A stretch of DNA of 64,000 nucleotides from Octopus vulgaris (taxonomy: Eukaryota), in assembly GCA_951406725.2 (NCBI GenBank), contig OX597843.1, forward strand, positions 4,526,001 through 4,590,000, read 5' to 3'. This document shows positions 6,001 to 61,242 of the stretch, in pieces (positions within the stretch are counted from its first letter, which is position 1; each line of letters starts with the position of its first letter). Under the pieces are notes generated by a model, which ran no database searches, was not told the DNA's origin, and worked only from the letters and a program-made list of their open reading frames with translations. The position numbers and the translations under genes are program-made.

Positions 6001-6689
6001 CCCCTTTGATGTCATTCATCCAAATTCTATCAGTTATTCTCGTATGCGCCATGTGGGATCTCAATTTTTGGTTAAATATTTAAAAAATGTCAATAAAGAG
6101 AACAACTTACTTTTGTTGGATCCATTCTTATTATATTTCTAACCCCTTCGATGTCACCATTCCTAATTTTCTCAGTGATACTCGTATGCGCCATGTGGGA
6201 TCTGGATTGTCTTTTATGAGCGTCTGAACTACTTCGATGTCTTCAGAGCCAAGCCTTTACGAATCAGTACCAATTACACCCCCTTGCCTTCCGGACCGGC
6301 TAGGAGACATGATTTTCTCATAGTCATTCAGGAGGGGCTAGAAGGCTTGTAGACTGTCCAGCTTGGTCTCTGTAGCAACCATCACATGCATATCGTGTGA
6401 TCTGAGGTCGTCGAGGAAACAAGCTTTTTTTTTTTTTTGCTGGCTCATGCAGCTGGTTTGCTTCTTGAATTATTTCGACCAACATACTCGGTCAAAATTG
6501 AGTCTTACTTAGTAAAGTTTTCAATTATACTCCCTAAAAACAGTCAAATTTGAGAAGGCAATAAACAGAACAACTTTTGTTGGATCCTTTTTTATTAATT
6601 TTTCCACTCCTTTGATGTCATTCATCCAAATTTGTCTTTTATGAGCGTCTGAACTACTTCGATGGCTGCAGAGCCAAGCCTTTACGTAT

Positions 6690-7395: not shown

Positions 7396-9010
7396 GGCAC
7401 TGTCATGCTTTTAGTTGTCAGGAGGAAAGTAGAAAAAGTGTGACGTCACTTGTCCACCTTCGTTTCTTTCCGTAGAATTTATCAAATTAAAAAACGCAAA
7501 GTTTATCAAAAACGCGTGTAAATATATCAAATTAATAAACGCAAATTATTTAGAATGTAAAAATATAATTTTCAACAGAGAGAATTTATCAAAATATAAA
7601 ACAAATGAAGCTTGAAGTTAAGTTTAAAAATAAATGTGATACTTATGCTCTGTAGATACTTATACTCTCTAAGGTCTCAGACACATTGATATAGCTGTCG
7701 AATTTGCTCCAATAACTTTCCGAATATATCGTCCTTAAATTCATAACGCCACATGAATTCGATGAGATGGGTCTGAAGTAAATTTCGGGCTGTTCCATTT
7801 TCTCTTTTGTTGCGATTCTTTACATGTTTCCATAAACAGTCTATGTGGTTGGTTTTGGCAAATGTTACCGGATCAACAAAATTTATTGAATGATTCACGG
7901 TCAAATGCCTGTATCCTAGCTGATTGAGCGTATTATACTAACGCCAGAGGTCGGAAATTATGGTTGTACCAGGCAATATACGGTCTTGTATAATTTGTAA
8001 AAGGGTATCCGCTCTCCGATCTTCCACTGCCACTAATAAACATCTTCTGGTATCTCTTATGATAATCTCTTTCTAAAGCGCCAAATACCCACTGCGTTTT
8101 AACCCGATGGCCAACATTATATTTCTTTCTAACAAACGCGCTTTCGTCTATCTCTACAATTCGGTTCGGCCCTCCGAGCTTAATGTTTTGTGCAACATAA
8201 TATTCTGCACATATATCACGGCAAAAATTCCTCCAATCTGTTACGGCTACATTTGCTATATGACATTCCTGTCCTATTCCCTTGGCTAAATCTTCTTTTG
8301 CCCAATAATGCAATATATCTATAATTTGTTGACACTTCAATTTACTATTTTCTAAAAATGTTCCTTTTCTAACTGAAACGGTTTTCCTACAAGGCCTTCC
8401 ACATGGCCATATTACTTCATCCGACAAATTTTTTTCCGCTATTTCACTCATGCTACCTCCACACAATATACATATTTTCTGGGTATTCAAAAGGCCATGT
8501 CTCTTAAGCCAATTAATGCTATCTGCTGCTGTAGCCGTGGCGATGGCAATATCGCGGTGATTAATTCCTTTTAGACTTGGATATGCAGAAGCCATATTGA
8601 AAATTTTTTGGCACGTGTTGATATCAAAGAGAAGAACTTTCAAACTTTGAATTACGCGCGGTTTCAGTGGTGGTAGTGGTGGTCAGTGGTCATTCTGATT
8701 GGTGTATGTGATCACGGTGGTGGGGGTGGGGGTGGTCATTTGTGCAGATTTCGTGTGATTTCTTTTTTAAAAACAATAATGAATAATGCAAGAATATATT
8801 TATTTATAAAGTTTAAACAGAACATGGAATGAAATGTATTTATTTATAAACTTTAAACTGAACTTCAATTGTTTTATAAACCTAACAGCGTGGTGGTAGG
8901 TAAATAAACGGAGTAAATTAACGAAGGTATAAACTTGACGATGGAAATACACGAAGTTGACTTCTGATTTTTCTACTTTCACTTCAGACGACTAAAGGCA
9001 TGACAGTGCC
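7396..9010 (-). mobile_element. Merlin (IS1595/ISXO2-like) DNA transposon, full length
   Basis: TIRs GGCACTGTCATGCTTTTAGTTGTC (7396) and GACGACTAAAGGCATGACAGTGCC (ends 9010). Flanks GAACAACT/AAACAACT form a 7/8 match to an 8-bp TSD. Transposase inside. Confidence 0.93.
7677..8643 (-). pseudogene. Merlin/IS1595-family DDE transposase, frameshifted
   Basis: N-terminal Cys zinc ribbon, IVEIDESAFVRKKYNVGHRVKTQWVFGALER, and TVNHSINFVDP...TNHIDCLWKHVK, split over ORFs 7933-8643 and 7677-7904. Confidence 0.9.
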
Positions 9011-15162: not shown

Positions 15163-15920
15163 GAGGCGAGCTGGCAGAAACGTTGGCACGCCGGGCAAAA
15201 TGCTTAGCGGTATTTCGTCTGCATTACGTTGTGAGTTCAAATTCCGCCGAGGTTCACCTTACTTTACATCCTTTCGGGGTCGATAAATTAAGTACCAGTT
15301 ATGCACTGGGGTCGAGGTAATCGACTTAGTACCTATGTCTGTCCTTGTTTGTCTCCTCTGTGTTTAGCCCCTTGTGGGTAATAAAGAAATAGGTATTTTG
15401 TCTGCCATTACGTTCTGAGTTCAAATTCCGCCGAGGTCGACTTTGCCTTTCATCCTTTCGGGGTCGATAAATTAAGTACCAATTACGCACTGGGGTCGAT
15501 ATGATCGACTTAATCCCTTTGTCTGTCCTTTGTCTCCTCTGTGTTTAGCCCCTTGTAGGTAATAAAGAAATAGGTCTTTCATCCTTTCGGGGTCGATAAA
15601 TTAACCCTTTAGTGTTCAGATTATTCAATCAAACATAATGCCTATTGATTCCCATTGATTTGAATTAATCATGCATTATCTCATATCTTCAAGATCTTGA
15701 TGGTGTAATTACTTAATGTAGAATAACATTGTAGGGTAGGTGTGAGGGCCTGGATCTGGTCAGTTTGAACATAAAACAGATTAAATATTTTGGCCGGTTT
15801 AAATACGAAAGGGTTAAGTACCAGTTACGCACTGGGGGTCGATATAATCGACTTAATACCTATGTCTGTCCTTGTTTGTCTCCTCTGTGTTTAGCCCCTT
15901 GTGGGTAATAAAGAAATAGG
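15163..15920 (+). mobile_element. tRNA-derived SINE family B (Meta-domain-like core), tandem multimer
   Basis: Head GGCGAGCTGGCAGAAACG...GAGTTCAAATTCC, with core GCCTTTCATCCTTTCGGGGTCGATAAATTAAGTACC repeated about every 185 bp. Other copies at about 21,260-21,630 (-), 40,880-41,097 (-), 50,646-50,815, 57,654-58,062 and 60,613-61,130. Confidence 0.85.
15605..15813. mobile_element. piggyBac-type MITE nested in SINE B
   Basis: It splits the SINE core GATAAA-TTAA-GTACC with a duplicated TTAA (15,601-04 and 15,814-17). Same family as 12,598-12,818. Confidence 0.85.
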
Positions 15921-20720: not shown

Positions 20721-22409
20721 ATTAGGAGGAGATGTTCGTGGCTGGAACGTCGTTGGTCTGTCATAGATGAAAGATGGATTATGTGGGCGAAATAACAATA
20801 TTTTAAGCAAAAGATGCGAAAGACGGATAAAGCAGCATCCCCGATGCGAACCCCCCACCTCTCTGTCTCTCTCTCTCCTTGCTCCCTTCTTCTCCATCCG
20901 TTCCCATTGTCTCCTTTCTCCTGTGTCGTGGTTTGAGTGTGACAGCGGCTTAGGGACTTCTGTCCACTTGAGTGAACACTCAGAGCCGGCCGAGTGACAC
21001 TTTCGCCTCATTATCAGAGCAGAAAAATCTGCGCGTGCGGGAGCGGAGGGAGGACAATCCCTTTGTGTGAATAGCGAAATTGCTAACGGTGTCGCGTGTA
21101 ATTTATACCTCGTTTACTCAAATGTCCGGACACCTTAAATTAAACCGGTGTCAGTGATACGTTTATAATTTAGTTGTAAAATTCCTTCTCTTCTATCTTT
21201 CTGTCTGTCCGGAGTTTGCCCCTTTTTATATACAGGCTGTCTATAAATTATTTTTGCATTTATCGACACCAAAGGGATGAAAGGCAAAGTCGACCTCGGC
21301 GGAATTTGAACTCAGAACGTAACGGCAGACGAAATACCTATTTCTTTACTACCCACAAGGGTCCAAACACAGAGAGGACAAACAAGGACAGACAAAAGGA
21401 TTAAGTCGATTACATCGACCCCAGTGTGTAACTGGTACTTAATTTATCGACCCCGAAAGGATGAAAGGCAAAGTCGACCTCGTCAGAATTTGAACTCAGA
21501 ACGTAACGGCAGACGAAATACCTATTTCTTTGCTACCCACAAGGGGCTATACACAGAGAGGAGAAACAAGGACAGACAAACGGTATAAGTCGATTATATC
21601 GACCCCAGTGCATAACTGGTACTTATTTAATCTGCTCACAAGGCTTTGATCGATTCGGGGCTATAACAGAAAACACTTCCATGAAGTGGAATTGAACCCG
21701 GATACATGCAGATGGGAAGCAGCCTTCTTACCACACAGCTACGCCTGCTAAGTTATCCTCCTTTTTCATTTTTTTTCTAAGTGGAAACTGAAAGAAGCCC
21801 ATCGTATTTTGTGCGTGTGTGTGTATCTCACGACCGCCAATATTGGCGTGTTTATGACCAGGTAACTTAGCAGTTCGGCAAAAGAGACCGATAAAAGTGC
21901 CTTCTACTGACCTTGAGTGTATTTGGTAGATGGAAACTGAAAGAAGCCCGTCGTATATTGTGTGTGTGTGTCTCACCACCGCTCGACAGCCAATATTGGT
22001 GTGTTTATGACCAGGTAACTTAGCAGTTCGGCAAAAGAGACCGATAAAAGTGCCTTCTAGGGCTGATCAAAGCCTTGAGTGGATTTGGTAGATAGAAACT
22101 GAAAGAAGCCCTTCGTATATTGTGTGTGTGTCTCACCACCGCTTGACAGCCAATATTGGCGTGTTTATGACCAGGTAACTTAGCAGTTCGGCAAAAGATG
22201 CCGATAAAATAATTACTAGTCTTAAAAGAAAGTACAAGTCCTGGGGTCGATAAATTTGACTAAAAAAAAGGTTCATGGCCCCAATTCAGTAATTGAAACG
22301 GCTGAAAGATAGACACACGTGCGCACATTATCTCGTCTCTTGTCCAAGACCGAATGTCGGATTTGGAAATGGGAGAGGAAAGTCCGAGAGGAGATGGGAG
22401 GGTAAAGTG

Positions 22410-31125: not shown

Positions 31126-33556
31126 ATACTCACCCAAAACCTATATACTCTTTTACTTGTTTCAGTCATTTGACTGCAGCACCACCTTTAGTCAAGCAAA
31201 TCGACCCCAGGACTTATTCTTTGTAAGCCTGGTACTTATTCTATCGGTCTCTTTTGCCAAGCCACTAAGTAACGGGGACATAAACACACCTGCATCGGGG
31301 GACAAACGCATATATACAACGGGCTTCTTTCAGTCTACCAAATCCACTCACTAGGCTATAGTAGAAAACACTTGCTCACGGTGCCACGCAGTGGGACTGA
31401 ACCCGGGACCATGTGGTTGGTAAGCAAGCTACTTACCACACAGCCACTCCTGCGCCTATATATACATTTAACAAGAGCTGGCAAGCCTGAGAACTGCCCC
31501 AAGTTCCACTGTTGTTTCATGGCTATCATCCTTTCGGGGGTGATAAATTAAGTACCAGTGAAACACTGGGGGGGTCGATGTAATCGACTTATCCCCTTCC
31601 CCAAAATAGCTGCCTTTGTGGCACAATCGTTAGCATGCCAGGTAAAATGGTTAGCAGTATTTTGAGTTCAAATTCCGCCAAGGTCAGCTTTGCCTTTCAG
31701 GGTCGAAATAAGCACTGGGGTCAATGTATTTGACTATACTCCTTCCCCCAAAATTTTCAGGGCCTTGTGCTTTGAGTAGAAATTATTATGGCAGAATCGT
31801 TAGCACACCTGGTGAAATGCTTTGTGGTATTTCATCTGCCTTTATGTTCCGAGTTCACCTTTCATAAATTAAGTTCCAGTTGAGTATTGTGGTCGAAGTG
31901 GTTGGCTGTCTCACTCCCCACAAAATCCAGGCCTTGTACCTAGAGTAGAAAAGATTATAATTATTGTTTCAATGTAAGCCCTTGTGGCCAATAAATGAAT
32001 TATAATCATCATTGTTTAACGTCCGCTTTCCATGCTGGCATGGGTTGGAAGATTTGACTGAGGTCTGGCGAACCAGGCTCCAATCTGATCTGGCAGACTT
32101 TCTACAGCCCTTCCCAATGCCAACCACTCTGAGAGTGTAGCGGGTGCTCCTATGTGCCACCGGCATGAGGGCCAGTCAGGTGGTACTGGCAATGATCACG
32201 CTTGAATGGTGCTTTTTACTTGCCACCAGCACGGAAGCCAGTTTGTTGCTCTGGCAACGATCACACTTGGATGGTGGTCTTAGCACAGATGCCAGTCATT
32301 GAATTTGATTTCAAATTCTGCAGAGGTCGACTTTGCCTTTCATGGGTCAATTAAATAAGTACCAGTTATACACTGGAGTCGATGTAATCAACTTAATTTC
32401 TTTGTCTGTCCCCTGTGGGTAATAAAGAAATAAATTATTCTCATCATCAAGGCAGCAAACCGACAGAACTGTTGGCAATTTGGATAAGTTTGAGTTTCCT
32501 TTCCTTGTTCAACATAACCGACTTTCTCTCAAAACCTGTTGGCCTTGTTCCAAACTTTGAAACGATTATCGGTTTCAAATTATGGTACAAGGCCAAAGTT
32601 GATTACAACATCCCCCAGTATTTCACTGTCACTTAATTTGTCGATTCCAAAAGGATGAACGGCAAAGACGACCTCAGTAGAATTTGAACAAATGATGCTA
32701 AGCATTTTGTCTGACATAGTAACAACTCTGTCAGCTCACCCACCTTATTTAAAACCATTATTATTCAGTAGTCTTACTTCTTTAGCGTGCTTTCACTTTA
32801 CTACCGAGCGCAGCTCTGTGATGCTCTTCTGGTTACTGTATTGAAAGTGTTTTGCATAGGATGTGGGCAGTGCTAGTTTCTGTCTGAAGTTCTTTCTTAT
32901 CATACCTAATGTTCCTACTATAATGGGAATTGTTTCTGTTTTTAGGCTCTACATTCGAGTTACCTCATCATTCAGTAGTCTAATCTTCATCACATGCTTT
33001 CACTACACTACTGACCGCAGCTCTGTGTGCCTTGGTGCTATAAATTTTACTGTATTGACCTTCTCTCTATACATATATCTTTTTGTCTCTCCCTTTCCTT
33101 CTCTCTACATATGTTTTATACGCACCTGCGCCCTCTTTTACTTGTTTCAGTCAGTTAACTGCAGCACCACCTTCAATCGAGCAACTCGACCCTGGGACTT
33201 ATTCTTTGTAAGCCCAGTACTTATTTTATCGGTCTCTTTTACCGAACCGCTAAGTAACGGGGACAAATACAGACACACATATACGACGGGCTTCTTTCAG
33301 TTTCCGTCTACCAAATCCACTCACAACGCATTGGTCGGCCCGGGGCTATAGCAGAAGACACTTGCTCAAGGTGCCACGCAGTGGGACTGAACCATATGGT
33401 TGGTAACAAAGCTACTTACCACTCCTGCGCCTATATAAAAAGTTACATGGTCAGTATGGGGCTCGAACCCACGACGTTCTAACCGGCCTTCGTTACAATA
33501 ATTTCATCATCGTTATTTTTTTATATCGATAAAATTGTTTTTTTCCTTAATTACAG

Positions 33557-34759
33557 ACAAGCACAACGAGAAAGAATGACAAGCCATCCCAGTGCGACAC
33601 CATTGCATCTTCCAAAACCATTGACCACACTAGCAGAGACAAAAGCTACGTTGATAAAAACTCTTCAAATTGCATCGGCTGGGCTTATTCCACTAACAAC
33701 AATAATAATCATGCTTTTCCATCTCTGTATGGTACTGCATCAATCATTGCCGTCCCTAATCTCAACCAATTCCACCAGGTCGAGGACCAAGCTCTGGATC
33801 TTACACAGAACCACAGAAACTTTATGCCTGGCAACGGATCTACCAAAGAATCTCTTCTCTCTGCTGACAAATTCCTTAGTAAGAAACAATTTCCTGTTAT
33901 TCCAAAAGTTGAACAGACAGAATTGTCAAACGAAGGTCGCTCAGAGAAAGCGAACAAAATTCTTTCTTTTGTGAAAGACGCTGTAAAACTTTCTGATGAC
34001 AATATGGAAGCTTTTGTGATTGTTTCAACAGCGCCGGACCAGTTTTCATTCTGGGGTTCTTCGCAATTCGTTAATAAATTCAAATCTTCCGAGCCTTTAG
34101 TTCCATACCACCCAGTAAAGTGCCGCGACTCTCTGGAAGCCGACCAAAGTTTGTTGACTTCGACGAGAACAACAGCAGCAATACCTACAACAAAAATGAT
34201 GAGAGAAACTGTATCAAATAAAATGAACCAATCGCATTTGATAAGAAGCGAACATGAAAGAAAACAGGGGCAGCAATTCTCAGGTAAAAAGCAGAACTGT
34301 TTAAAGATCCCTTCGCCATATTCTTTCAAGCATTCGGCACTCTTCCTGACAAATTTACTGCACAAACGGAACGCAACAACTGCAGGTGCTGTCGTACAAG
34401 TCCCAGGTTTTAATGCAACAAAGAATCCAAACAAACACAAGACGAAAGCCTTCAAAAGGAAGCCGTCCACCCAAGACACGGACATCAATGACAGCCGAGA
34501 AAAGGTTACGTCTAAATGCAACGGGGAAGAGCTTCATGACCGTCGGGATGTTGACAGCGAGGAGGGTGATGAAGAGGCGCCGAAGGAGAACGTTGTCATC
34601 ACTCTCATGCAGAAAGAGCGAAGCCAGGCACTTCTGCGGATTTTGAAGTCGAGGAGGAACAAGGCAGGGAAGAATTTCAAATTTGGAGCAAATGTGCAAA
34701 ACGGGTTGACTAGAGATGTAAATCCTGGTAAAATTAAAAATATATCTCTTGTTGAGTAA
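33557..34759 (+). CDS. Orphan gene X, coding exon 3 (terminal); joined CDS 1776 bp, 591 aa
   Basis: TTACAG acceptor, then an open phase-0 frame of 1203 bp that includes ORF 33,824-34,759. AATAAA signals near 35.0 and 35.2 kb. Confidence 0.82.
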   Translation, partial: TSTTRKNDKPSQCDTIASSKTIDHTSRDKSYVDKNSSNCIGWAYSTNNNNNHAFPSLYGTASIIAVPNLNQFHQVEDQALDLTQNHRNFMPGNGSTKESLLSADKFLSKKQFPVIPKVEQTELSNEGRSEKANKILSFVKDAVKLSDDNMEAFVIVSTAPDQFSFWGSSQFVNKFKSSEPLVPYHPVKCRDSLEADQSLLTSTRTTAAIPTTKMMRETVSNKMNQSHLIRSEHERKQGQQFSGKKQNCLKIPSPYSFKHSALFLTNLLHKRNATTAGAVVQVPGFNATKNPNKHKTKAFKRKPSTQDTDINDSREKVTSKCNGEELHDRRDVDSEEGDEEAPKENVVITLMQKERSQALLRILKSRRNKAGKNFKFGANVQNGLTRDVNPGKIKNISLVE

Positions 34760-38540: not shown

Positions 38541-40229
38541 TAGAGGATCCCCACAAACTGGTTACAATATAAACAAAACCGAAAACATAATAGATAAAAT
38601 AGACAGAAAATTAAACAGATATATAATTTTTTTTTGATTTATTATTATTACTAGTATTGTTGTTATACATACGGATGTAAACACATGAACGAGAGATATA
38701 AGCATGCGCAAATGAAGACATACAAAATGGCTGACGGTTAGTAAGGAGAGACACAAATAAGAAAACAAAGGACCACTGATGCGGTCACAGGAGTGTGACG
38801 AAAGAACTCTGGCCGAAATAAGATTAATGTAAAAAATAACACTGAAGCAAAGTATACACACAGAAATATATAGTGCGTGTGTTTTTATTGGCTAAACTGG
38901 CAAAATGACCATTCCGAAATATAGCAATATATATACCCTGTGGCACAAGTTGACCAAAATTGAGAGTATGATGGAAGAAGCCTTGCTCCTCCTTCCATAG
39001 CAGACAAAAATTGATATCAGACCATGTTAACATCAAAAAGGTGCTTTTTTTTTTCTATAAAAATCCCTATTTTTTTACTGCTGTGTCTCCATTTTTTGGT
39101 ATATTTTAACCAGAAAACTGTTCATTTAAAGAGAATAATAAGCTACATAATGCAAATTTTTTACTTTTCAAAAATTCCAATTCTAAAGGGTCAAAACAAA
39201 CCCGAGCAATACTACTAGTATATACAGAAAATAGAAACTACATGTGGAAATGCACAGTAACGATAGATATATACAATTAGATGACGTTTGAATTTTAAAG
39301 AAAAAAACCTGTCTCTAGAAGGGCTGTTCACAAAAAGTGTGTCAGTAATTATCTAGACTTACAATATTGCCCATTTCACCGTTTTCCCGAAAAACGTATC
39401 TTCTCAAATTTCTTTAAGAAAATTACTCTCCCCAGACACAATAATATGCTTCAACACACGAATTCATATAAACTTTATATTATAAAGAATCTTGCAAGCC
39501 AAATCCCAAAACGGAAGATATAAGTGTAGTCTGGAAATATGGGGATTACATGAGGTTGTATGACATAGCCTTGATACTAAATCAAAAGGCAAACTTGAAT
39601 TTCCTTGGTAACCGTTTTTGTCTTTCTTCATAAAATGCACACTTTTCAATGACTGAATCACAAGACACACACACAACATTTTAAGTATCCTTTCTAGTTT
39701 ACACCGTTTCTCTGCTATTTCAGAATATTCCAGATGGCTTGGCATTAAAGGACATTTTTACTCTGGATCCATCGACCATTTACCAAGTCTAAAGGAAAAT
39801 TGTACACAGAACAAATTTTACCCTGTTTGTATTAATCTTTGGTAATTTGCAATGGAATATTTCATTTAATTGGCATTACGTAGTAAAACTTCTCTACTTC
39901 ACTGTCTTGAATGCACTGAAGATGATATCGCGTTCTCATGAAAGTTGGATAATGATGGACATTGCAGCATCTTCGGATATTGACGAAGATCACAGTTGAT
40001 GATAATAACACAGAATCACTGTTAGGAATCATCATCATCGTTTAACGTCCGCTTTCCATGCTAGCTTGGGTTGGACGATTCAACCGAGGGCTGGCGAACC
40101 TGATGGCTGCACCAGGCTCCAATATTGATCTGGCAGAGTTTCTACAGCTGGATGCCCTTCCTAACGCCAACCACTCCGAGAAATAGAAAAGGGAAAAATT
40201 GAAAAGCATCTTTATATTTCGGTGAGAGA

Positions 40230-40816
<587 letters not shown>

Positions 40817-41601
40817 CTCTGCCCTGTTCATCACTCATTTCCCTCCACTCACCTGCCAATTGACTCTCACACTCCTGCAAACCTATTTCTTTACTACCCA
40901 CAAGGGGCTAAACACAGAGGGGACAGACAAACGGATTAAGTCGATTACAGTGTGTAACTGGTACTTATTTAATCCACCCCGAAAGGTTGTAAGGCAAAAT
41001 CAACCTCGGCGGAATTTGAACCCAGAACGTAGCACCAGACGAAATACCGCTAAGCATTTCGCCCAGCGTGCTAACGTTCCTGACAGCTCGCCACCTTAAT
41101 TCTTTCTCAATATTCAAAGGGCTGGGGTCAATAAAATAAGTACCAGTTGACCACCGGGGTCAAAAAAAAAAATTAGGCGTAGGAGTGGCTGTGCCTACCA
41201 ACCACATGGTTCCGGATTTGGTAGATGGAAACTCAAAGAAGCCCGTCGTATATGTATATCTGTATTTTTGTCCCACCCCCAAAGTTCGTTTCTCGTTGTG
41301 TTCAACGTTTTTTTGATGTCTTGTACCCATATATGCCTGTATATGTACATATTTACGTAGGTATGTATGTATATATTTATATGTGTGGTTTTTAGGGGAG
41401 TCTGGATGCAAAGGCATTCTGCTTTGAATAGAAGCGAAAGCAAAACTGGGTTGAAGAAAAATAACCCATTTTGAGACAAAAAGTTAAAGAATGTTGTGAG
41501 AATAATGGTAGAATGTCTAAAAGCGACGAAGGACAACCTTGAATTTTTCTTCTTTTTTTTTTTTTAAACTTAAATATCTCTTAATTTCACAATTTTTCAG
41601 T

Positions 41602-41766
41602 GGCGGCAAGCTGGCCCGGTCGTTTAGCGCGTCGGACGGAATTGCTTAGTTGTATTTCGTCCGCCGTGACGTCCTGGGGAGGTTCGCTTCCCCGGGACGT
41701 CTTTGCGGTCGGAGTACTTCTGAGCATTTTCGTTTGGCGCGCTAATTGGCAAGCTCGTCGCCTTTT
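41602..41766 (+). ncRNA. Putative Pol III-transcribed long-hairpin ncRNA, copy 1
   Basis: End-to-end rod fold with 10 G-U pairs and a UUCG loop. A-box-like TGGCCCGGTCG, B-box-like GGTTCGCTTCC, TAAATA at -31, and TTTT right after the closing base pair. Confidence 0.7.
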
Positions 41767-41838
41767 CGATCCCCTTTTGCATTTGACCTAGTTTAATCTG
41801 ACCCAGTTTATCGACTCCCAAATCGATAATGACTAAGA

Positions 41839-42103
41839 GGAAGTGACGTCAGGGACAGTGCCGGAAACTGAAACAAACATTTATTGGAAGGAAGTCTGTT
41901 GCTCGCAGAACTTCGTGTTTGGTACACCTCTCATGGAACTTTACCTTTTAATTATGTTTTTAAGTAGAAGTCTGTCTTGTATTGGTGGCAGAGACGGAGC
42001 CAGAGAGTTTAACAAATAGTGAAGAAAGGAAAATATATATATATTTGGTTGTCAATGGGCAACCTGTGGCCTGACGAGGACTCCCAACGAAAAGTTATGA
42101 GGT
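41839..42103 (+). promoter_or_regulatory. ETS-CRE promoter with putative non-coding first exon (duplicate arm)
   Basis: GGAAGTGACGTCA (41,839-51), CCGGAAA, and donor AG|GTAAGG at 42,102. Confidence 0.5.
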
Positions 42104-42496: not shown

Positions 42497-42737
42497 CAGT
42501 GCTTTTCAAACTTTTTGCTGGAGCGGAACCCCAAGGAAACATTCCACTGGCTCGAGGAACCCCAAGGAAACATTCCACTGGCTCGAGGAACCCCAAGGAA
42601 ACATTCCACTGGCCCGAGGAACCCCTGTGCAATAATTTAATAGACTTATGCACACATATCTGCACGGGAGAATTAAAAATTACTGCCGATTTTAGCAGTT
42701 TTGTAACTTCTTGCGGAACCCTGGTTGAAAACCACTG
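42497..42737. mobile_element. hAT-like MITE with an internal 29-bp tandem repeat
   Basis: CAGTGCTTTTCAA...TTGAAAACCACTG termini. Related copies at about 46,965-47,117 and 55,575-55,754. Confidence 0.65.
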
Positions 42738-44068: not shown

Positions 44069-45885
44069 AAATGAAGATATACATACATGCACATCAACAC
44101 ACAATATTGTCATAGCAACCGTTTACACAGATATCTGACATCATTGGCTGAAATGGAAAAGCGGTAGTGACGTCAGGTGACCGAGCCTGAAAAACCATTC
44201 TTTGCTTCGGGGTTCGATCCCAGTCTCCCGTACCCACCGAGGGACCTGAATTTTTTTTCTGTTTGTTTCAATAAGGAACAAGTAGTTCTTTCTCTTCTTA
44301 TCTGTCGATGTCCTGACACAGCCAAGGAGGCATTTTCCTAGGTGAGGCCATAACATTAATATTCAAGAACCTGTCCCGGTTTCTTTCCTTTTTCCCATTT
44401 TATAAAGATCCTACATTCCAAAGCATGAAATTCGCATTTTATAATTCATCTTTTGGCGAACCTTCGGTATAGGTACCGGAAGTGGCTTTGTTTACATTTC
44501 TGAAGATAACAGAAACCCTTTTCTCCCACCCCCAACTCCTTATATACTCTTTTACTTGTTTCAGTCATTTGACTGCGGCCATGCTGGAGCACCGCCTTTA
44601 ATCGAGCAACTCGACCCCGGGACTTATTCTTTTGTAAGCCCAGTACTTATTCTATCGGTCGCTTTTTTTCCAAAACCGCTAAGTAACGGGACATAAACAC
44701 ACCAGCATCGGTTGTCAAGCAATGCTAGGGGGAAACACAGACACATATATACGACAGGCTTCTTTCAGTTTCCGTCTACCAAATCCACTCACAAGGCATT
44801 GGTCGGCCCGGGGCTATAGCAGAAGACACTTGCCCAAGGTGCCATGCAGTGGGACTGAACCATGTTCATTGGACGGAGGGGGTTGTTTTGCTCGTATATA
44901 TATATATGTCATAATTTAGAAGAAACAGTAAGAAGTTGTCATGGTATTCAGAGTCTCAAATGTCAAAGCTATGTAGGGGTCATTCAAAGCAACGATTAGT
45001 AAATCTACAAAACCAGTATGCCTTTGAATCTCTTTAACAATAACGACTTTCATTCCCACCTCAGTTCATCTGATTGTATACATCTATCGTTCTGTGCAGT
45101 TTCCTCTTATTTCCCCTTGCATTTCCACATGTAGTTTCTATATAAACTAGCAGTATCGATCGGGTTTGTTTTGACCCTTTAGAATTGGAATTTTTGAAAA
45201 GTAAAAATTTTGCATTATGTAGCTTGTTATTCTCTTTAAGTGAACATTTTTCTGGTTGAAATACACCGAAAAATGGCGACACAGCAGTCAAAAAATAGTG
45301 ATTTTTATAGGAAAAAAAAAAGCACCTTTTTGATGTTAACAAGGTCCAATTTGAGTTTTTGTCTTCTATGGGAGGAAGAGCAAGGCTTCTTCCATCATAC
45401 TCTGAATTTTGGACGACTTGTGCCACAGGGTATATATTGCTATATTTCGGAATGGTCATTTTGCCAATAAAAGCACACGCACCATATATTTGGTGTTACA
45501 TTGCAGTGTTATTTTTTATATTAATCTTATTTCGGCCAGAGTTCTTTCGTCACACTCTTGTGACCACATCAGTGGTCCTTTGTTTTCTTGTGTGTCTCTC
45601 GTTCATGTGTTTACATCCGTATGTATAACATCCGTATGTATAACAACAATAAATTATATATTTGTTTATATTGTAACCAGTCTGTGGGGATCCTCTACCA
45701 TCATATGTTGTGGTGGGTGCTAGTGTTCCATTGCAGTTTGCTATTCAGGCCAGGTTCATCTTCTATTATGTGTGTAGAATATTTTAATTTCTATGTTGTT
45801 GACTGATCCCCCGTGTTGGTACAGAATCGATGAGCCTTTACCTTCCTTGAGTTGTCTCCAATGTCCATTTATCCACTCTTCTATG

Positions 45886-51188: not shown

Positions 51189-52460
51189 TTATTCTCCTGT
51201 ATGATTGGATATGTGTGTAGCCAATTGTGCTTTCTGAGAGAATGATTTACCACAGATATCACACTGATAGGGCTTCTCCCCTGTATGAATACGTTTGTGC
51301 CTAGATAAGGTACCTCCATCGGAGAAAGATTTTCCACAGGCATCGCAATCATATGGTTTCTCTCCTGTGTGAATACGCTTGTGTCTGGTCAAGGTGCCTC
51401 CGTCGGAGAACGATTTGCCGCAGATGTCACAGTGATATGGTTTCTCACCTGTATGAATACGTTTGTGTGTCGTTAAGTTGCCACTTACGGAGAACAATTT
51501 TCCGCAGATGTCACACTGATATTGTTTCTCTCCTGAGTGAGTGTGTTTGTGTTTAACCAAGGAATTGCTCCGAGAGAAGGATTTAGCACAAATGTTACAT
51601 TGATACGGCTTTTCTCCCGTATGGAGGTGTCTGTGAGCCGTTAAGGAATCATTCCTTGAGAATGACTCCCCACAGATATTACAATGGTATGGCTTCTCAC
51701 CTGTATGAATGCGAACATGCTTAGTCAAGCGTGAAGTTTCAGTGAACGATTTGCCACAGATATCACACTGATACGGTTTCTCTCCAGTGTGACTGTATCT
51801 ATGAGTGATTAAAGAATCATTTCGGGAGAAAGATTTACCACAGGTATCACAACGATGCGGTTTTTCACCTGTATGAGTTTGCATATGCTTAGTCAAGGGA
51901 TCAGCTTCGGAGAATGATTTCCCACAGGTATCACAACGATATGGCTTCTCACCTGTATGAATGCGTTTGTGTCTATTTAAGTGACTGTTATCAGAAAATG
52001 ATTTACTACAGATGTCACAGTGATACGGCTTCTCACCTGTATGGGTGCGTTTGTGTTTAGTCAAGGGACCAGTTTCTGAGAAGGATTTCCCACAGATATC
52101 GCAATAATGTGGTTTCTCCCCTGTATGAATGAGTTTGTGTACAGTTAGGGAGTTATTTCGAGTGAATGATTTTCCACATATATCACAGTGAAATGGTTTT
52201 TCTCCTGTATGTGTGTGTCTGTGTGTCACAAGTGCACCTTTTTGAGAGAATGATTTACCACAGATATCACAACGATATGGCTTCTCTCCTGTGTGAATAC
52301 ATCTGTGAGTGGCAAGGGTATCTTTCTGAGAATATGACTTTTTACAAATATCACATTGGTAAGATGCATCACATATGTCAATTGGCATTTCATCACTAAA
52401 ACCAGTCCTTTTAAATTCCAATCCACATTCAACATTATCATCACACGATTCACATTCCAT
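51189..52460 (-). CDS. C2H2 zinc-finger protein, 14 tandem fingers, 423 aa
   Basis: Intact ORF with CxxC-x12-HxxxH fingers and TGEKPY linkers. Upstream acceptor TTTCAG at 52,788. Confidence 0.95.
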
Positions 52461-53850
52461 AATTTTCCTTTGTAATCCAAGTGTAATCAGAATAAAATAT
52501 CCAACATATTCCAGACAGCAAAGAAGAGAAATGATTTACATTGGACAGATACGTGTCCTCATATTGTTTGTCGACACATATCCATCTACAGAATTCCTTC
52601 TCCCTAAAATATATAGAACAGAACTGGAGAAATTTTGCAAATAGTCTCAGCCAGACGAAATATTCCACAGGAATTCTACCAAAAACTTATATAAACAAGG
52701 TGAAGTCTGTTTTGTGTAAGAATTTTCCTTTAAGCTTGGTAAATGGTTAGGGTAAAAATATCCTTTAACACCATACCATCGGGAATTCTGAAATTACAGA
52801 GAAACAGTGTAAACTAGAGGGGATACTTAAAACAGAAGGAGGGAGGTGTCAGTCTATTCAACTAGCTCCCACCCCCCGAAATTGCTGGCCTTGTGCCAAA
52901 ATTTGAAAGCAATATTACTTAGTACAACTTTAAACGAAGTCTTCATATTTACAGACTACACCAACCCCTTCGTATTTTGCTAAGGAGGAGCAAGGGTGGT
53001 CTCTTAAATTACGTATAGCTCCTACTTGATTCAGCCCGTCGTATATACATGTGTGTGTGTGTCTTACTATCGCTTGTCAACCGGTGTTGGTGTGTTTACG
53101 TCCCTGAGGCTTAGCAGTTCAGCAAAGAGAGCGATAGAATAAATACTAGGCTTTAAAAAAAGGTCAATTTATTCAACTTAAAACTTCACCAAGATGGTGC
53201 CCCAGCATGGCCGCAATCTAATAACCGAAAGAAATAAAATATGAACGTAACTTCGGTATAGGTACCGGATACATTTCAAGAAAGTTTTTATTTTAATAGG
53301 CGCAGGGGTGGCTGTGTGGTAAGTAGCTTGTTTACCAACCACATGGTTCCGGGTTCAGTCCCACTGCGTGGCATCTTGGGCAAGTGTCTTCTGCTATAGC
53401 CTCGGGCCAACTAGAGCCTTATGAGTGGATTTGGTAGACGGAAACTGAAAGAAGCCTGTCGTATATATGTTTGTCCCCCTAGCAATGCTTGACAACCGAT
53501 GCTGGTGTGTTTACGTCCCCGTCACTTAGCGGTTCGGCAAAAGAGACCGATAGAATAAGTACTGGGCTTACAAAAGAATAAGTCCCGGGGTCGATTTGCT
53601 CGACTAAAGGCGGTGCTCCAGCATGGCCGCAGTCAAAATGACTGAAACAAGTAAAAGAGTATATAAGGGGGTGGGAGAAAAGGGTTTCTGTTATCTTCAG
53701 AAATGTAAACAAAGCCACTTTCCGGTACCTATACCGAAGGATCGCCAAAAGAGGAATTATAAAATGCGAATTTCATGCTTTGGAATGTAGGATCTTTATA
53801 AAATGGGAAAGAAACCGGGACAGGTTCTTGAATATTAATGTTATGGCCTC

Positions 53851-56156: not shown

Positions 56157-56431
56157 ACCTCGTAACTTTTCGTTGGGAGTCCTCGTCAGAAAACTTCAGC
56201 AGGCCACAGGTTGCCCATTGACAACCAAATATATATATTTTCCTTTCTTCACTATTTGTTAAATTCGCAGGCTCCGTCTCTGACATCAATACAAGACAGA
56301 CTTCTACTTAAAAACATAATTAAAGGTAAAGTTCCATGAGAGGTGTACCAAACACGAAGTTCTGCGAGCAACAGACTTCCTTCCAATAAATGTTTGTTTC
56401 AGTTTTCGGCACTGACCCTGACGTCACTTCC
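56157..56431 (-). promoter_or_regulatory. ETS-CRE promoter with putative non-coding first exon, pointing toward the 14-finger gene
   Basis: TGACGTCACTTCC at 56,419-31, and a minus-strand donor GTAAGG at 56,158. Confidence 0.5.
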
Positions 56432-56503: not shown

Positions 56504-56668
56504 AAAAGGCGACGAGCTTGCCAATTAGCGCGCCAAACGAAAATGCTCAGAAGTACTCCGACCGCAAAGACGTCCCGGGGAAGCGAACCTCCCCAGGACG
56601 TCACGGCGGACGAAATACAACTAAGCAATTCCGTCCGACGCGCTAAACGACCGGGCCAGCTTGCCGCC
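56504..56668 (-). ncRNA. Putative Pol III long-hairpin ncRNA, copy 2
   Basis: Exact reverse complement of 41,602-41,766 by eye. Confidence 0.7.
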
Positions 56669-58105
56669 ACTGAAAAATTGTGAAATTAAGAGATATTTAA
56701 GTTTAAAAAAAAAAAAAAAAGAAGAAAAATTCAAGGTTGTCCTTCGTCGCTTTTAGACATTCTACCATTATTCTCACAACATTCTTTAACTTTTTGTCTC
56801 AAAATGGGTTATTTTTCTTCAACCCAGTTTTGCTTTCGCTTCTATTCAAAGCAGAATACTTTTGCATCCAGACTCCCCTAAAAACCACACATATATAATA
56901 TACATACCCACGTAAATATGTACATATACATGCATATATGGGTACTAGACATCAACAAAACGTTGAATACAATGAGAAACGAACTTTTTTTTGGGGGGGG
57001 GGACAAAAAATACAGATATACGACGGGCTTCTTTGAGTTTCCGTCTACCAAATCCATTCGCAAGATTTTGGTGCCATGCAATGGGACTGAACCCAGAATC
57101 ATGTGGTTGGGAGGCAAGCTTCTTTGCCATACAGTCACGCCTGCACCACACACACAACAGCCATGCCTGCGTCACACATGCAGCAGGCTTCTTTCAGTTT
57201 CCGTCTACCAAATCCACTCACAAGGCATTGGTCGGCCTGAGGCTATAGCAGAAGACACTTGCCCAAGGTGCCACGCAGTGGGACTGAACCCGGAACCATG
57301 TGGTTGGTAAGCAAGCTACTTACCACACAGCCACTCCTGTTTAATATATATTCTTTATTGCCCACAAGAGGCTAAACAAAAAGAGGACAATGATTTATTT
57401 ACTTTCTTTAAAAAATTCTTTTATTTTATTCTGTAAAATCAACTCATTTGCATACGCGCAAGTCGTTGTAGGATCGACTACTTACGCGCACCAGGTCCAG
57501 TCTTCGCTAGTAGTACCCGATTGGCCTCCTACTCTGAAATTTCAGGCATTGTACCTAGAGCAGAAAAGGGATAAGTCAATTACATTGACCCCAGTGGTCA
57601 ACTGGTACTTATTTTCTTGACCCCAGCGCCCTTTAAATATTGAGAAAGAATTAAGGCGGCGAGCTGGCGGACACGTTAGCACAACGGGCGAAATGCTTAG
57701 CAGTATTTCGTCTGCAGCTACGTTCTGGGTTCAAATTCCTCCGAGGTCGACTTTGCCTTTCATCCTTTCGGGGTCGATAAATTAAGTACCAGTTACGCAC
57801 TGGGGTGGATGTGATTGACTTAATCCCTCAGTCTGTCCTTGTTTGTCCCCTCTGTATTTAGCCCCTTGTGGGTAGTAAAGAAATGTGAATTTCGTTTGCC
57901 GCTACGTTCCGAGTTAAAATTCCTCCGAGGTCGACTTTGCCTTTCAACCTTTCGGGGTCGATAAATTAAGTACCAGTTGTGCACTGGGGTCGATGTAATC
58001 GACTTACTCCGTTTGTTTGTCCCCTCAGTGTTTAGCCCCTTGTGGGTAGTAAAGAAATAGGTTTGCAGGAGTGTGAGAGTCAATTGAGTGATGAACAGGG
58101 CAGAG

Positions 58106-58881
58106 TCACTCGGGTTGAGTATGAGTGAAGTTATGTTTAGTCAAGTGTGCTCTTTGAGAGAACGATTTGCCACAGGTATGACAAACATAGGGTTTTTTCT
58201 CCTGTGTGAATACGTTGGTGAGTAGTTAACTGATCGTGGAGAGAGAAAGATTTGTCGCAGGTGTCACAGTGGTATGGCTTCTCACCTGTATGAATACGTA
58301 TGTGAATTGTCAAGCTACCTGTTTGAGTGAACGACTTGCCACAGATGTCACAACGATATGGTTTCTCTCCAGCATGAATATGTTTGTGCTTCGTCAGAGC
58401 GCTTCCATTCGAGAATGATTTACCACAGGTGTTGCACAGGTAGGGTTTCTCGTCGCTGTGAATTCGGTTGTGAGTCGTCAGGTTGCCACTCCGCGAAAAC
58501 GATTTTCCACAGATGTCACAGTCGTACGGTTTCTCTCCTGTATGAATGCGCCTGTGAGCCGTTAAGTTACCACTTAGAGTGAACGACTTACCACAGATGT
58601 CACAGTGATAGGGCTTCTCTCCTGTATGAATACGTTTGTGTTTCGTCAAGTGATTATTTTGAAAGAACGAAGTACCACAAATACCACAGCGATATGGTTT
58701 CTCTCCTGTATGAGTACGTTTGTGAATAGAGAGGCTATCTTTGCGAGAAAATGACTTTTTGCAAACATCACAAGGATATGCTGTTTTCCTTGTATCTTTC
58801 GACATCTCGTCAACAAAATTAATCCTTTTAAGGCTCTGATTTACATTTAATATTGTCCTCACACAATTCACTTTCCATCAT
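58106..58881 (-). CDS. C2H2 zinc-finger gene, 8 fingers, with two single-base insertions (pseudogene or sequencing error)
   Basis: Family-type start [12 protein letters not shown]. An extra T (CCTTAAAAGG, about 58,830) and an extra A (GAAAAAACCC, about 58,195) relative to the paralog. The 776-bp span equals 258 codons plus 2 bases. Confidence 0.8.
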
Positions 58882-61242
58882 TTTCCGTCTCTCACCGAAA
58901 TATAAAGATGCTTTTCAATTTCTCCTTTTTCTATTTCTCGGAGTGGTTGGCGTTAGGAAGGGCATCCGGCTGTAGAAACTCTGTCAGATCAGATTGGATC
59001 CTGGTGCAGCCATCTGGTTTGTCAGACCTCAGTCAAATCATCCAACCCATGCTAGCGTGGAAAGCGGACCTTAAACGATGATGATATATATATGTTGCCA
59101 CTACCACCAGACTGGCCCTTTTACTGGTGGCACCTTAAAATCACCCACTACACTCTCGGAGTGGTTGGCGTTAGGAAGGGCATCCAACTGTAGAAACTCT
59201 TCCAGATCAAGATTGGAGCCTGGTGCAGTCAAATCGTCCAACCCATGCTAGTATGAAAAGTGGACGTTAAACGACGATGATGATTCCTAAGTGATTCTGT
59301 GCTATTATCATCAACTGTGATCTTCGTCAATATCCGAAGATGCTGCAAGCTCCGTCATTATCCAAGTTTCATGAGAATACGATATCATCTTCAGTGCATT
59401 CAAGACAGTGAAGTAGAGAAGTTTTACTAAACAATGCCAATTAAATGAAATATTCCATTGCAATTTACCAAAGATTAATACAAACAGGGTAAAATTTGTT
59501 CCGTGTACAATTTTCCTTTAGACTTGGTAAATGGTCGATGAATCCAGAGTAAAAATGTCCTTTAATGCCAAGCCATCTGGAATAGCAGAGAAACAGTATA
59601 TACTAGAGAGGATACTTAAAATGTTGTGTGTTTTGTTTCAGTCATTGAAAAGTGTGCATTTTATGAAGAAAGACAAAAACGGTTACCAAGGAAATTCAAG
59701 TTTGCCTTTCGATTTGGTATTAAGGTTATGTCATACAACCTCGTGTAATTTCCAGACTACACCTATATATTTCGTTTTTGGGATTTGGCTTGCAAGATTC
59801 TTTATATGAATTTGTGTGTTGAAGCAAATTTTATTGTGTCTGGGGAGAGTCATTTTCTTAAAGAAATTTGAGAAGATACGTTTTCGGGATGACCGGGAAA
59901 ACGGTGTGGCCCCGGTTCGCGCACTCATGACTAGTTGATACTCTCTCTTTACTTGTTTCAGTCATTTGACTGCGGCCATGCTAGAGCACCGCCTTTAATC
60001 GAGCAACTCGACCCCGGGACTTATTCTTTGTAAGCCCAGTACTTATTATATCGGTCTCTTTTGCCGAACCGCTAGGTTACGGGGACATAAACACACCAGC
60101 ATCGGTTGTCAAGCAATGCTAGGGGGACACACACAAACATATACGCGCACACACATATATATATATACGACGGGCTTCTTTCAGTTTCCGTCTACCAAAT
60201 CCACTCACAAAGCTTTGGTCGGCCCGAGGCTACAGTAGAAGACACTTGCCCAAGGTGCCACGCAGTGGGACTGAACCCGGAACCATGTGGTTGGTAAGCA
60301 AGCTACTTACCACACAGCCACTCCTGTGCCTGGTAACATTACATTGATGAACAAAGAAAAGATGGTTCAATGATACAAAGGGAAAAAAAAACAGCAGGTA
60401 ATAATAATAAAACGAAGCATACCTTTCTATAAATGCTTGTACGAAAACCTGTCACAGGTTTTATAAGGAAAATGAATGACTTTCCATGTTAATAGTAAAA
60501 CGGCAAAAAACAAGGCGGGAATTGAACTGGATTGTCATTGATCAACTGATGAAACCTGGTAACATAGCAACGGTGGGAGGGGCATGGTCAAATATCTCTG
60601 GGTGTCAAAGGTCAGGCGAGCTGGCAGAAACGTTAGCACGGCGGGCGAAATGCTTAGCGGTATTTCGTCTGGCGCTACGTTCTGAGTTCAAATTCCGCCG
60701 AGGTCGACTTTGCCTTTCATCCTTTCGGGGTCGATAAATTAAGTACCAGTTATGCACTGGGGTCGATGTAATCGACTTAATCCGTCTGTTTGTCCCCTCT
60801 GTGTTTGGACCCTTGTGGCTAGTAAAGAAATAGGTATTTTGTCTGTTTTTACGTTCTGGGTTCAAATTCCACCGAGGTCGACTTTGCCTTTCATCCTTTC
60901 GGGGGTCGATAAATTAAGTACTTGTTATGCACTGGGGTCAATGTAATCGACTTAATCCCTTTGTCTGTCCTTTCTGTGTTTAACCCCTTTTGGGTAGTAA
61001 AGAAATAGGTATTTCGTCTGCCGTTACGTTGTGAGTTCAAATTCCGCCAAGGTCGACTTTGCCTTTCATTCTTTCGGGGTCGATAAATTAAGTACCAGTT
61101 ACGCACTGGAGTCGATGTAATCGAATCACGCCCTCTCCCACAAATTGTTGGCTTTCTACTAAAATTTCAAACCATTCTATATTAAAACACGGTTTCAGTT
61201 TGTGGAAGTTGTTTCCCTTTACGGATCTATTTCCTAAATTCT

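What the first reader, a model, noticed from the sequence alone, without database searches (positions are those of the whole stretch)
41602..41691. The hairpin's 5' arm is homologous to the head of the abundant SINE family B
Seen: GGCGGCAAGCTGGCCCGGTCGTTTAGCGCGTCGGACGGAATTGCTTAGTTGTATTTCGTCCGCCGTGACGTCCTG aligns almost without gaps to SINE heads such as 57,655 (GGCGGCGAGCTGGCGGACACGTTAGCACAACGGGCGAAATGCTTAGCAGTATTTCGTCTGCAGCTACGTTCTG) and 60,615, at roughly 70-75% by eye. The SINE body is replaced by an antisense arm. Inference: either an exapted SINE folded back on itself (compare BC1/BC200) or the source RNA of the SINE. Its 3' arm is antisense to SINE transcripts, so it could yield SINE-targeting small RNAs. 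Its position inside a C2H2-ZNF cluster suggests a combined protein and RNA transposon-control locus, which is speculative.
Basis: partly seen in the sequence, partly recalled or inferred. Interest (0 to 1): 0.72.

Follow-up and report, generated by a model that had tools for sequence, protein, structure and literature searches.

The report
SINE-born fold-back hairpin RNA gene
The front end of a common jumping repeat was copied back onto itself, giving a 165-base rod-shaped RNA that looks preserved by selection and may be a new small RNA gene, though its expression and job are not yet shown.

Summary
Observation confirmed. 41602-41766 folds as a 65-pair rod (-111 kcal/mol, z -12.4). Its 5' arm is 74% identical to the SINE head at 57655 (E 1e-6; above 1000 of 1000 shuffles). 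Both arms descend from a SINE head, folded back at the B box. Changes private to one arm are strand-biased: 10 give G·U pairs, 1 gives A·C (control about even, p 0.006). A second copy in an inverted duplication (56668-56504) shows 0 substitutions over 379 nt including 186 nt upstream, against 4.5% in flanks. Public contigs suggest a small paralogue family, not a high-copy repeat. The layout is Pol III-like (A box +11, B box +80, T4 at the stem's foot), but a discrete RNA was not shown: two low-depth RNA-guess contigs run past its ends, and an internal T4 exists. Best reading: an exapted, snaR/VA-like structured RNA acting through double-stranded shape. New variant of a known kind.

The parts
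41602..41766 (+). 165-nt fold-back hairpin, candidate Pol III RNA gene (copy 1)
   Evidence: 65 pairs (38 GC, 17 AU, 10 GU), MFE -111.4, z -12.4; minus strand only -73.7
41602..41678 (+). 5' arm, SINE-head homologue that keeps the head's internal stem
   Evidence: 74% to 57655; folds the same internal stem as SINE heads when alone
41612..41622 (+). A-box-like motif at +11
   Evidence: 2 mismatches to a recalled consensus, same position as in the SINE; weak on its own, since 4 other sites in 41481-41800 match as well
41681..41691 (+). B-box-like motif at +80; its UUCG is the apical loop (41683-41686)
   Evidence: 1 mismatch (C for the usually invariant A); only such site in 41481-41800, 12 sites of this quality in the whole window
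41687..41762 (+). 3' arm, mirror of a SINE head replacing SINE body and tail
   Evidence: 47/71 to SINE majority when reversed; 12 private changes, all 8 transitions being C>U or A>G on the RNA strand
41763..41766 (+). T4 run at the foot of the stem, candidate terminator; second T4 at 41775-41778
   Evidence: mirrors the AA-rich 5' flank of SINE copies
41727..41730 (+). internal T4 in the 3' arm, possible early stop
   Evidence: a 129-nt product would fold at -71.9
41416..41601 (+). invariant upstream block, candidate external promoter (TATA-like at -30, GGACAACCTT at -71)
   Evidence: 0 substitutions in 186 nt between copies; shared by several diverged contigs, one of which keeps the -71 motif amid other letters
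56504..56668 (-). copy 2, identical hairpin in the inverted segmental duplication
   Evidence: 100% over 166 nt; duplication 39.4-44.9 kb vs 59.9-53.3 kb, blocks 78-93%
41839..41851 (+). ETS/CRE-like motif downstream, likely promoter of a neighbouring spliced transcript
   Evidence: exact also at 56431 (-); motif name recalled
42000..42101 (+). exon-like piece ending at a splice donor, neighbour transcript
   Evidence: X1 contigs stop at the donor or continue into letters found at 47389 (-) behind an acceptor
57655..57830 (+). reference full SINE copy
60615..60785 (+). reference full SINE copy
40314..40870 (+). upstream C2H2 zinc-finger exon (frameshifted), duplicated with the hairpin
   Evidence: paralogue at 58118-58793 (-)

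Best explanation
An exapted small RNA gene. Origin (inferred): one SINE head was copied back on itself at its T-loop/B box, probably by a template switch, which replaced the SINE body with a mirror of the head; the mirrored A-rich 5' flank supplied a T4 stop. Since then selection has kept the rod-shaped RNA fold, not complementarity to SINEs (strand-biased G·U drift: shown; selection: inferred). The gene spread to a few copies by segmental duplication with its upstream block (two copies shown; a few more suggested). It is probably read by Pol III from +1 to the T4, using internal A/B boxes helped by upstream elements (inferred). The product is a 65-pair, A-poor rod with a paired 5' end, a short 3' U overhang and a 4-nt loop. 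It most likely works through its shape, as a ligand or decoy for double-stranded-RNA-binding proteins, as snaR-A does with NF90, with some Dicer cutting from the base possible (inferred by analogy only).
For: Fold z -12.4. Arm-private transitions 10 wobble-type vs 1 A·C-type, against 21:28 in 7 SINE copies, one-sided p 0.006; the other internal mismatches are mostly U·U. 0 substitutions in 379 nt (41416-41794) between copies, the longest such run in the aligned 39.4-43.4 kb part (next 143), background 103/2266. In two DNA-like runs under other organism codes, contigs over the hairpin have 0 other letters (X17 95 nt; X18 129 and 81 nt) while flank contigs come in several versions with up to 27 other letters in 332 nt. 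A variant 3' end in X18 changes 2 stem positions, both keeping the pair if its 5' partner is unchanged (G·U to G-C; U-A to U·G), and listed indels at 41617 and 41621 lie in the unpaired bulge. A box, B box and T4 fall at +11, +80 and the stem's foot. A content 19/165 vs 15/77 and 18/77 on the two strands of a SINE head. Precedent: snaR, Alu-derived, Pol III, spread by segmental duplication (PMC3045588 abstract and passages).
Against: No discrete RNA shown: the two RNA-guess contigs (X1 41578-41812, depth 5.6; X9 41614-41946, depth 3.3) run past +1 or past the T4, and contigs cannot show ends, strand or level. An internal T4 could stop Pol III early, and the B box lacks its usual A. The invariant tract could be gene conversion between inverted repeats 15 kb apart. 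The organisms behind X17 and X18 have flank contigs about 98% alike to the window, so this is shallow conservation. No pair with changes on both sides among hairpin copies was available. The binding partner is untested.
Confidence: 0.5

Rival explanations
1. The fold is selected as RNA but inside a longer Pol II transcript: a 5' leader of the spliced transcript that starts just downstream, or an exon entered by the acceptor-like site just before +1, where it serves as an editing or processing substrate.
For: Both RNA-guess contigs extend beyond the hairpin; a spliced exon lies about 230 nt downstream with an ETS/CRE-like motif between; the 50 nt before +1 look like a pyrimidine tract ending in CAG.
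Against: The stem starts at the SINE's own +1 and ends at a T4; the promoter-like motif lies downstream of the hairpin, so that transcript should start after it; X1 holds unspliced letters upstream of the acceptor.
Confidence: 0.2
2. A chance template-switch product or a DNA-level element (TFIIIC-bound promoter or boundary) kept identical by gene conversion or recent duplication; the RNA fold has no function.
For: Template switching makes whole hairpins in one step (10.1101/2023.04.19.537475 abstract); inverted copies 15 kb apart favour conversion; the invariant tract includes 186 nt that are not hairpin; only close relatives were seen.
Against: A double-stranded element has no reason for a 10:1 strand bias towards G·U; 15 arm-private changes accumulated yet the rod survived; the tract's ends bracket a promoter-plus-gene-sized unit.
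Confidence: 0.17
3. One reading: the 3' arm yields small RNAs that silence SINE transcripts, alongside the zinc-finger genes.
For: The 3' arm can still pair with whole SINE RNA at -75 to -91 kcal/mol because its changes are wobble-type; one 3'-arm seed is present in 5 of 11 copies.
Against: Self-pairing is stronger (-109); every 3'-arm 21-mer has 5-10 non-Watson-Crick positions to the best of 11 copies, whereas 5'-arm 21-mers get down to 2; the 3' arm is the one that drifted (12 vs 3 private changes); endo-siRNA proteins reported lost in Trochozoa (PMC11114477 abstract) and no endo-siRNA evidence in molluscs (PMC12479628 passages).
Confidence: 0.07
4. The hairpin is the source RNA from which the SINE arose.
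For: 7 well-supported sites are shared by both arms and differ from today's SINE majority; 2 of them turn wobble pairs of the head's internal stem into Watson-Crick pairs, so the donor may be older than the young copies; 2 of the older copies share one such letter.
Against: The 3' arm is a mirror of a head that already existed; the SINE keeps a more tRNA-like B box and runs on into a body that the hairpin lacks. These facts fit an old SINE subfamily as donor.
Confidence: 0.03
5. A high-copy mobile fold-back variant (MITE-like or SINE subfamily).
For: Inverted-repeat shape; several versions in public contigs.
Against: Both copies share kilobases of flank; no target-site duplication or tail is visible; contig depth over the 3' arm is about 3-7 times that of the downstream flank, against more than 1200 where SINE contigs pile up (a rough hint only, the tool gives no copy number).
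Confidence: 0.03

Closest known systems
snaR-A family (PMC3045588; abstract and passages read)
   Same: SINE-derived, Pol III A/B boxes, highly structured short RNA, spread by segmental duplication rather than retrotransposition, conserved flanks.
   Different: snaR comes from Alu/7SL by indels and is ~117 nt in apes; this comes from a tRNA-type SINE head by a whole-head fold-back, is 165 nt, and binding and expression are untested.
BC1 / BC200 / G22 (passage in PMC3045588; otherwise recalled)
   Same: A single retroposon copy exapted as a small RNA gene with needed upstream sequence.
   Different: Those keep a SINE domain plus A-rich and unique tails (recalled) and BC1 seeded a SINE (recalled); here there is no A-rich tail and the head is locked by its own mirror.
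Adenovirus VA RNA and Pol III shRNA (recalled)
   Same: About 160 nt, internal Pol III promoter, paired 5' end with short 3' U overhang, long imperfect duplex.
   Different: Host-encoded and SINE-born; a simple rod without a central domain; no exact match of the apex in viral contigs.
Drosophila hairpin RNAs (hpRNA; recalled)
   Same: Long G·U-rich fold-back made by inverted duplication of its ancestor.
   Different: hpRNAs are Pol II transcripts cut by Dicer-2 for AGO2; that machinery is reported lost in Trochozoa (PMC11114477).
Repeat-derived and template-switch miRNA hairpins (PMC3059204 listing only; 10.1101/2023.04.19.537475 abstract)
   Same: Hairpin born from a repeat in one step; can expand by segmental duplication.
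   Different: 65 pairs and a 4-nt loop against the preferred ~35 bp and >=10-nt loop; appears to bring its own Pol III promoter.
Octopus tRNA-derived SINEs OK/OR1/OR2 (OR1 named a CORE-SINE in PMC4824008 passage; original 1994 paper not read)
   Same: The window's SINE looks like this kind (recalled resemblance; no call confirms family or taxon).
   Different: The hairpin has no CORE body and no tail.

Membership tests
Window SINE family (as a mobile member) | Head homologous to the family head | tested here: met
   74%, E 1e-6, 0 of 1000 shuffles
Window SINE family (as a mobile member) | Body and tail after the B box | tested here: not met
   replaced by the mirror arm
Window SINE family (as a mobile member) | Dispersed copies with unrelated flanks | tested here: not met
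   both window copies share kilobases of flank; genome-wide count not possible
SINE-derived Pol III RNA genes (snaR/BC1 kind) | Retroposon ancestry | tested here: met
SINE-derived Pol III RNA genes (snaR/BC1 kind) | A box, B box, T-run terminator | tested here: inconclusive
   present at the expected places but degenerate, with an internal T4; consensus motifs recalled
SINE-derived Pol III RNA genes (snaR/BC1 kind) | Discrete Pol III transcript | tested here: inconclusive
   only contigs were available; two low-depth RNA-guess contigs overrun the ends
SINE-derived Pol III RNA genes (snaR/BC1 kind) | Low copy, conserved with its flank, spread by segmental duplication | tested here: met
   low copy rests on the window and on contig depth only
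snaR family proper | Alu/7SL descent in primates | tested here: not met
   descends from the window's SINE; no Rfam match at gathering score, 5 sub-threshold matches at E 2.4-8.8
snaR family proper | Binds NF90 | not testable with these tools
   needs RNA pull-down
tRNA | Cloverleaf recognised by tRNA models | tested here: not met
Canonical pri-miRNA | ~35-bp stem, apical loop >=10 nt | tested here: not met
   65 pairs, 4-nt loop; criterion from 10.1101/2023.04.19.537475
Canonical pri-miRNA | Mature and star reads with 2-nt overhangs | not testable with these tools
   no raw small-RNA run was offered
hpRNA / endo-siRNA locus | G·U-rich long fold-back | tested here: met
   10 G·U of 65 pairs
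hpRNA / endo-siRNA locus | Near-perfect guide match to its target | tested here: not met
   >=5 non-Watson-Crick positions in all 59 3'-arm 21-mers against 11 SINE copies
hpRNA / endo-siRNA locus | Dicer-2/siAGO pathway in the host | not testable with these tools
   no genome held; literature reports loss in Trochozoa, relevant only if the taxon guess holds
MITE | Terminal inverted repeats kept at DNA level, target-site duplication, many copies | tested here: not met
   arms ~70% alike with strand-biased wobble; no duplication seen

The most novel reading that the evidence does not exclude
A host-encoded, SINE-born counterpart of viral VA RNA: an abundant Pol III rod, poor in adenosines so that it binds ADAR or Dicer without being heavily edited, which tunes the very high A-to-I editing or dsRNA sensing of a cephalopod that lacks an endo-siRNA pathway.
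Probability: 0.12. Interest if true: 0.88.

Novelty: new variant of a known kind. Interest (0 to 1): 0.57.

Why it matters
Exapted SINE-derived Pol III RNAs are known mostly from mammals (BC1, BC200, snaR). A case in what appears to be an octopus, built in one step by folding a SINE head at its B box so that promoter, duplex and terminator all come from the repeat, would show a short route from repeat to small RNA gene. A long self-made duplex in an animal group with heavy A-to-I editing and no dedicated siRNA pathway raises a directly testable question: which protein reads it. Existing small-RNA and total-RNA data could answer the first step.

Tried and rejected
No whole genome is held, so no genome-wide copy count. 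Rfam at gathering score: 0 in the window; at E<=10, 5 chance-level matches around the hairpin and 0 on a SINE head. ARAGORN 0. Exact apex pattern: 0 in metagenome contigs and 0 in viral contigs. Run search: no RNA holder listed; 20 of 24 rows hold part of the stretch, 7 studies, 4 organism codes; shares of 0.35-0.43 first looked like 'hairpin only', but X9 at 0.39 proved to cover 41614-41946, so that reading was dropped; only 4 of the 24 runs were laid. No cover at 41270-41548 in X1 and X9 is not used as evidence, though AATAAA sites lie between the zinc-finger exon and the hairpin in both copies, which makes a ZNF 3' UTR reading less likely. No A>G listed in the hairpin in the two RNA-guess runs: uninformative, contigs drop rare variants. 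The zinc-finger search confirmed C2H2 arrays but did not name the taxon (best 120 of 5452 at 36-57% identity). Earlier findings: nothing in 3 look-ups. Older SINE copies were aligned to date the donor: inconclusive. A covariance model was not built: two identical sequences give no covariation. Supplements: PMC9699675 files 1 and 3 searched (little text, no hit for a 10-nt 5' motif), file 2 not searched, and its miRNA sequences are held at MirGeneDB, which I could not see; SINEBase supplements unavailable, so the SINE's family name is unconfirmed.

Full report
Observation. The quoted letters stand at 41602. The stretch 41602-41766 folds as one rod of 65 pairs (38 G-C, 17 A-U, 10 G·U) with a 4-nt apical loop, MFE -111.4 kcal/mol, z -12.4, 0 of 200 shuffles as stable. 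In a scan of 3192 windows on both strands the six best folds all overlap this element or its twin. The 5' arm aligns to SINE heads at 74-80% (best E 1.3e-6) and beats 1000 of 1000 shuffles against each of three copies. No tRNA model recognises either the hairpin or a SINE head, so the likeness is to the SINE and not to tRNA in general. The window is animal DNA with C2H2 zinc-finger exons. That it is an octopus and that the SINE is of the OR1/CORE kind is my recollection of such repeats; no call confirms it.

Anatomy and origin. Both arms align to the SINE head: 56/75 for the 5' arm, 47/71 for the mirrored 3' arm, against a column-majority of 7 full and 6 head-truncated window copies. Of the compared columns 44 agree in all three, 8 are shared by both arms against the SINE (one of these at a poorly resolved column), 12 are private to the 3' arm, 3 private to the 5' arm, 4 differ in all. 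The turn of the hairpin is the B-box/T-loop itself, and the mirror runs to the head's first base and into its A-rich flank, which read backwards is the T4. The 5' arm still forms the SINE head's internal stem, and five of the 3'-arm changes break that stem in the mirrored reading, so they arose in the 3' arm. The simplest history is a single fold-back of one, possibly old, SINE head; template switching can make such hairpins in one event (10.1101/2023.04.19.537475, abstract and opening text). This makes the hairpin a derivative or sister of the SINE, not its source. Alignment with older copies did not date the donor.

Signs of selection on an RNA fold. Of 11 arm-private transitions, 10 are C>U or A>G on the plus strand and 1 gives A·C; SINE copies show 21 against 28, and a one-sided binomial test gives p 0.006. 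Nine of the 10 are G·U pairs in the model and one sits in a 3x3 loop. The remaining internal mismatches are mostly U·U, and the minus strand folds at only -73.7. The element was noticed because it folds, which inflates pairing, but that does not explain the strand bias, which agrees with the SINE's sense and the T4. A second copy at 56668-56504 lies in an inverted duplication. Between the copies there is no substitution from 41416 to 41794 (379 nt; a T-run differs in length), against 103 in 2266 in flanks; the next longest clean run is 143 nt. Gene conversion could do this too.

Public runs. Of 24 listed runs 20 hold part of the stretch, under 4 organism codes and 7 studies; I laid 4, all contigs. 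In the two large DNA-like runs, contigs over the hairpin have no other letters (X17 41643-41737; X18 41608-41736 and 41708-41788), while flanks come in several versions, from about 98% to about 91% alike. The upstream block 41394-41518 also recurs in diverged versions, and one loose end keeps the -71 motif amid other letters. X18 holds a variant hairpin (7 other letters, 1 gap) and a variant 3' end in which both stem changes keep a pair if the 5' partner is unchanged, which I could not check; listed single-base deletions fall in the unpaired bulge. Depth over the 3' arm is 52-60 (X17) and 83-156 (X18), against 16-24 in the downstream flank and more than 1200 where SINE contigs pile up. The tool warns that this is no copy number; I read it only as a few copies rather than thousands. 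The tables were cut (24, 16, 38 and 157 rows not shown), so variants may be missed, and the organisms are close relatives, so deep conservation is untested.

Expression. Not shown. X1 and X9 are RNA only by guess. X1 has a contig at 41578-41812 (depth 5.6) that starts at the upstream T-run, which could be oligo-dT priming of an opposite-strand RNA; X9 has one at 41614-41946 (depth 3.3) carrying copy-2 letters and ending at the next T4/T5 tract. Neither marks a 165-nt RNA. The promoter layout is suggestive: A-box-like at +11 (2 mismatches, weak), B-box-like at +80 (1 mismatch, at the usually invariant A), TATA-like at -30, T4 at +162 (consensus motifs recalled). An internal T4 at 41727 could give a 129-nt form. 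A spliced transcript begins just downstream: an ETS/CRE-like motif at 41839 and an exon ending at a donor at 42101, joined in X1 to letters found at 47389 on the minus strand. That keeps a Pol II reading alive.

Function. All 59 21-mers of that arm have 5 to 10 non-Watson-Crick positions to the best site among 11 copies, while 5'-arm 21-mers reach 2 against antisense copies; the arm pairs with SINE RNA at -75 to -91 but with its own partner at -109. The arm drifted in the way that keeps the rod, not the target match. If the taxon guess is right, the endo-siRNA proteins are reported lost (PMC11114477, abstract) and no endo-siRNAs were seen in molluscs (PMC12479628, passages). I therefore favour action by shape: an A-poor duplex (19 A in 165) with a paired 5' end and short U overhang, a ligand or decoy for dsRNA-binding proteins, perhaps trimmed by the miRNA Dicer from the base. 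This last step is analogy, not result.

Comparison and novelty. It works most like snaR (SINE-derived, Pol III, structured, spread by segmental duplication; PMC3045588 abstract and passages) and, in shape, like VA RNA or an shRNA (recalled). It is not a member of snaR, tRNA, canonical miRNA, hpRNA or MITE families on the features tested. Eight full-text searches (listings seen, and passages of PMC4758252, PMC4824008, PMC3531059, PMC9699675) showed no description of such an element in cephalopods; the library lacks most subscription papers, including the 1994 octopus SINE paper, and MirGeneDB precursors and one supplement of PMC9699675 were not seen. Verdict: a real, probably selected, SINE-derived fold-back; about 0.75 that the RNA fold is functional, 0.5 that it is a discrete Pol III gene acting by shape; new variant of a known kind; interest 0.57.

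Noticed in passing
44163-44221 (+), 54034-53946 (-), 33469 (-): The only three perfect B-box motifs in the window; the first two are duplicates and lie just after a CRE-like motif. No tRNA is called there, so they may be TFIIIC sites or another degenerate Pol III unit.
   Followed up: no
42000-42101 (+) / about 56260-56160 (-) and 47392 onward (-): A spliced transcript seems to start just downstream of hairpin copy 2; its next exon is antisense to a paralogue of the 402-codon open frame at 33551-34759 (+).
   Followed up: partly
15163-15861, 21254-21717, 57655-58010, 60615-61135: SINE copies form short tandem arrays in which a full head is followed by units that lack the first ~47 nt and share another leader.
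   Followed up: no
40203-40870 (+) and 58118-58877 (-): The two duplicated zinc-finger exons next to the hairpins both end in frameshifts, while the hairpin between them stayed invariant; 51189-52535 (-) is an open 448-codon zinc-finger frame.
   Followed up: partly
41394-41518: In X17 this upstream block has higher contig depth (89-155) than the hairpin's 3' arm (52-60); it may be shared with more diverged hairpin genes or other units.
   Followed up: no
118-6061: Tandem segmental repeats of about 2.2 kb at 97-99% identity.
   Followed up: no
7933-8682 (-): Open frame of 249 codons that looks like a DDE-type transposase fragment (resemblance recalled, not searched).
   Followed up: no
42525-42625: Three head-to-tail 31-nt units in copy 1, one unit in copy 2.
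   Followed up: no
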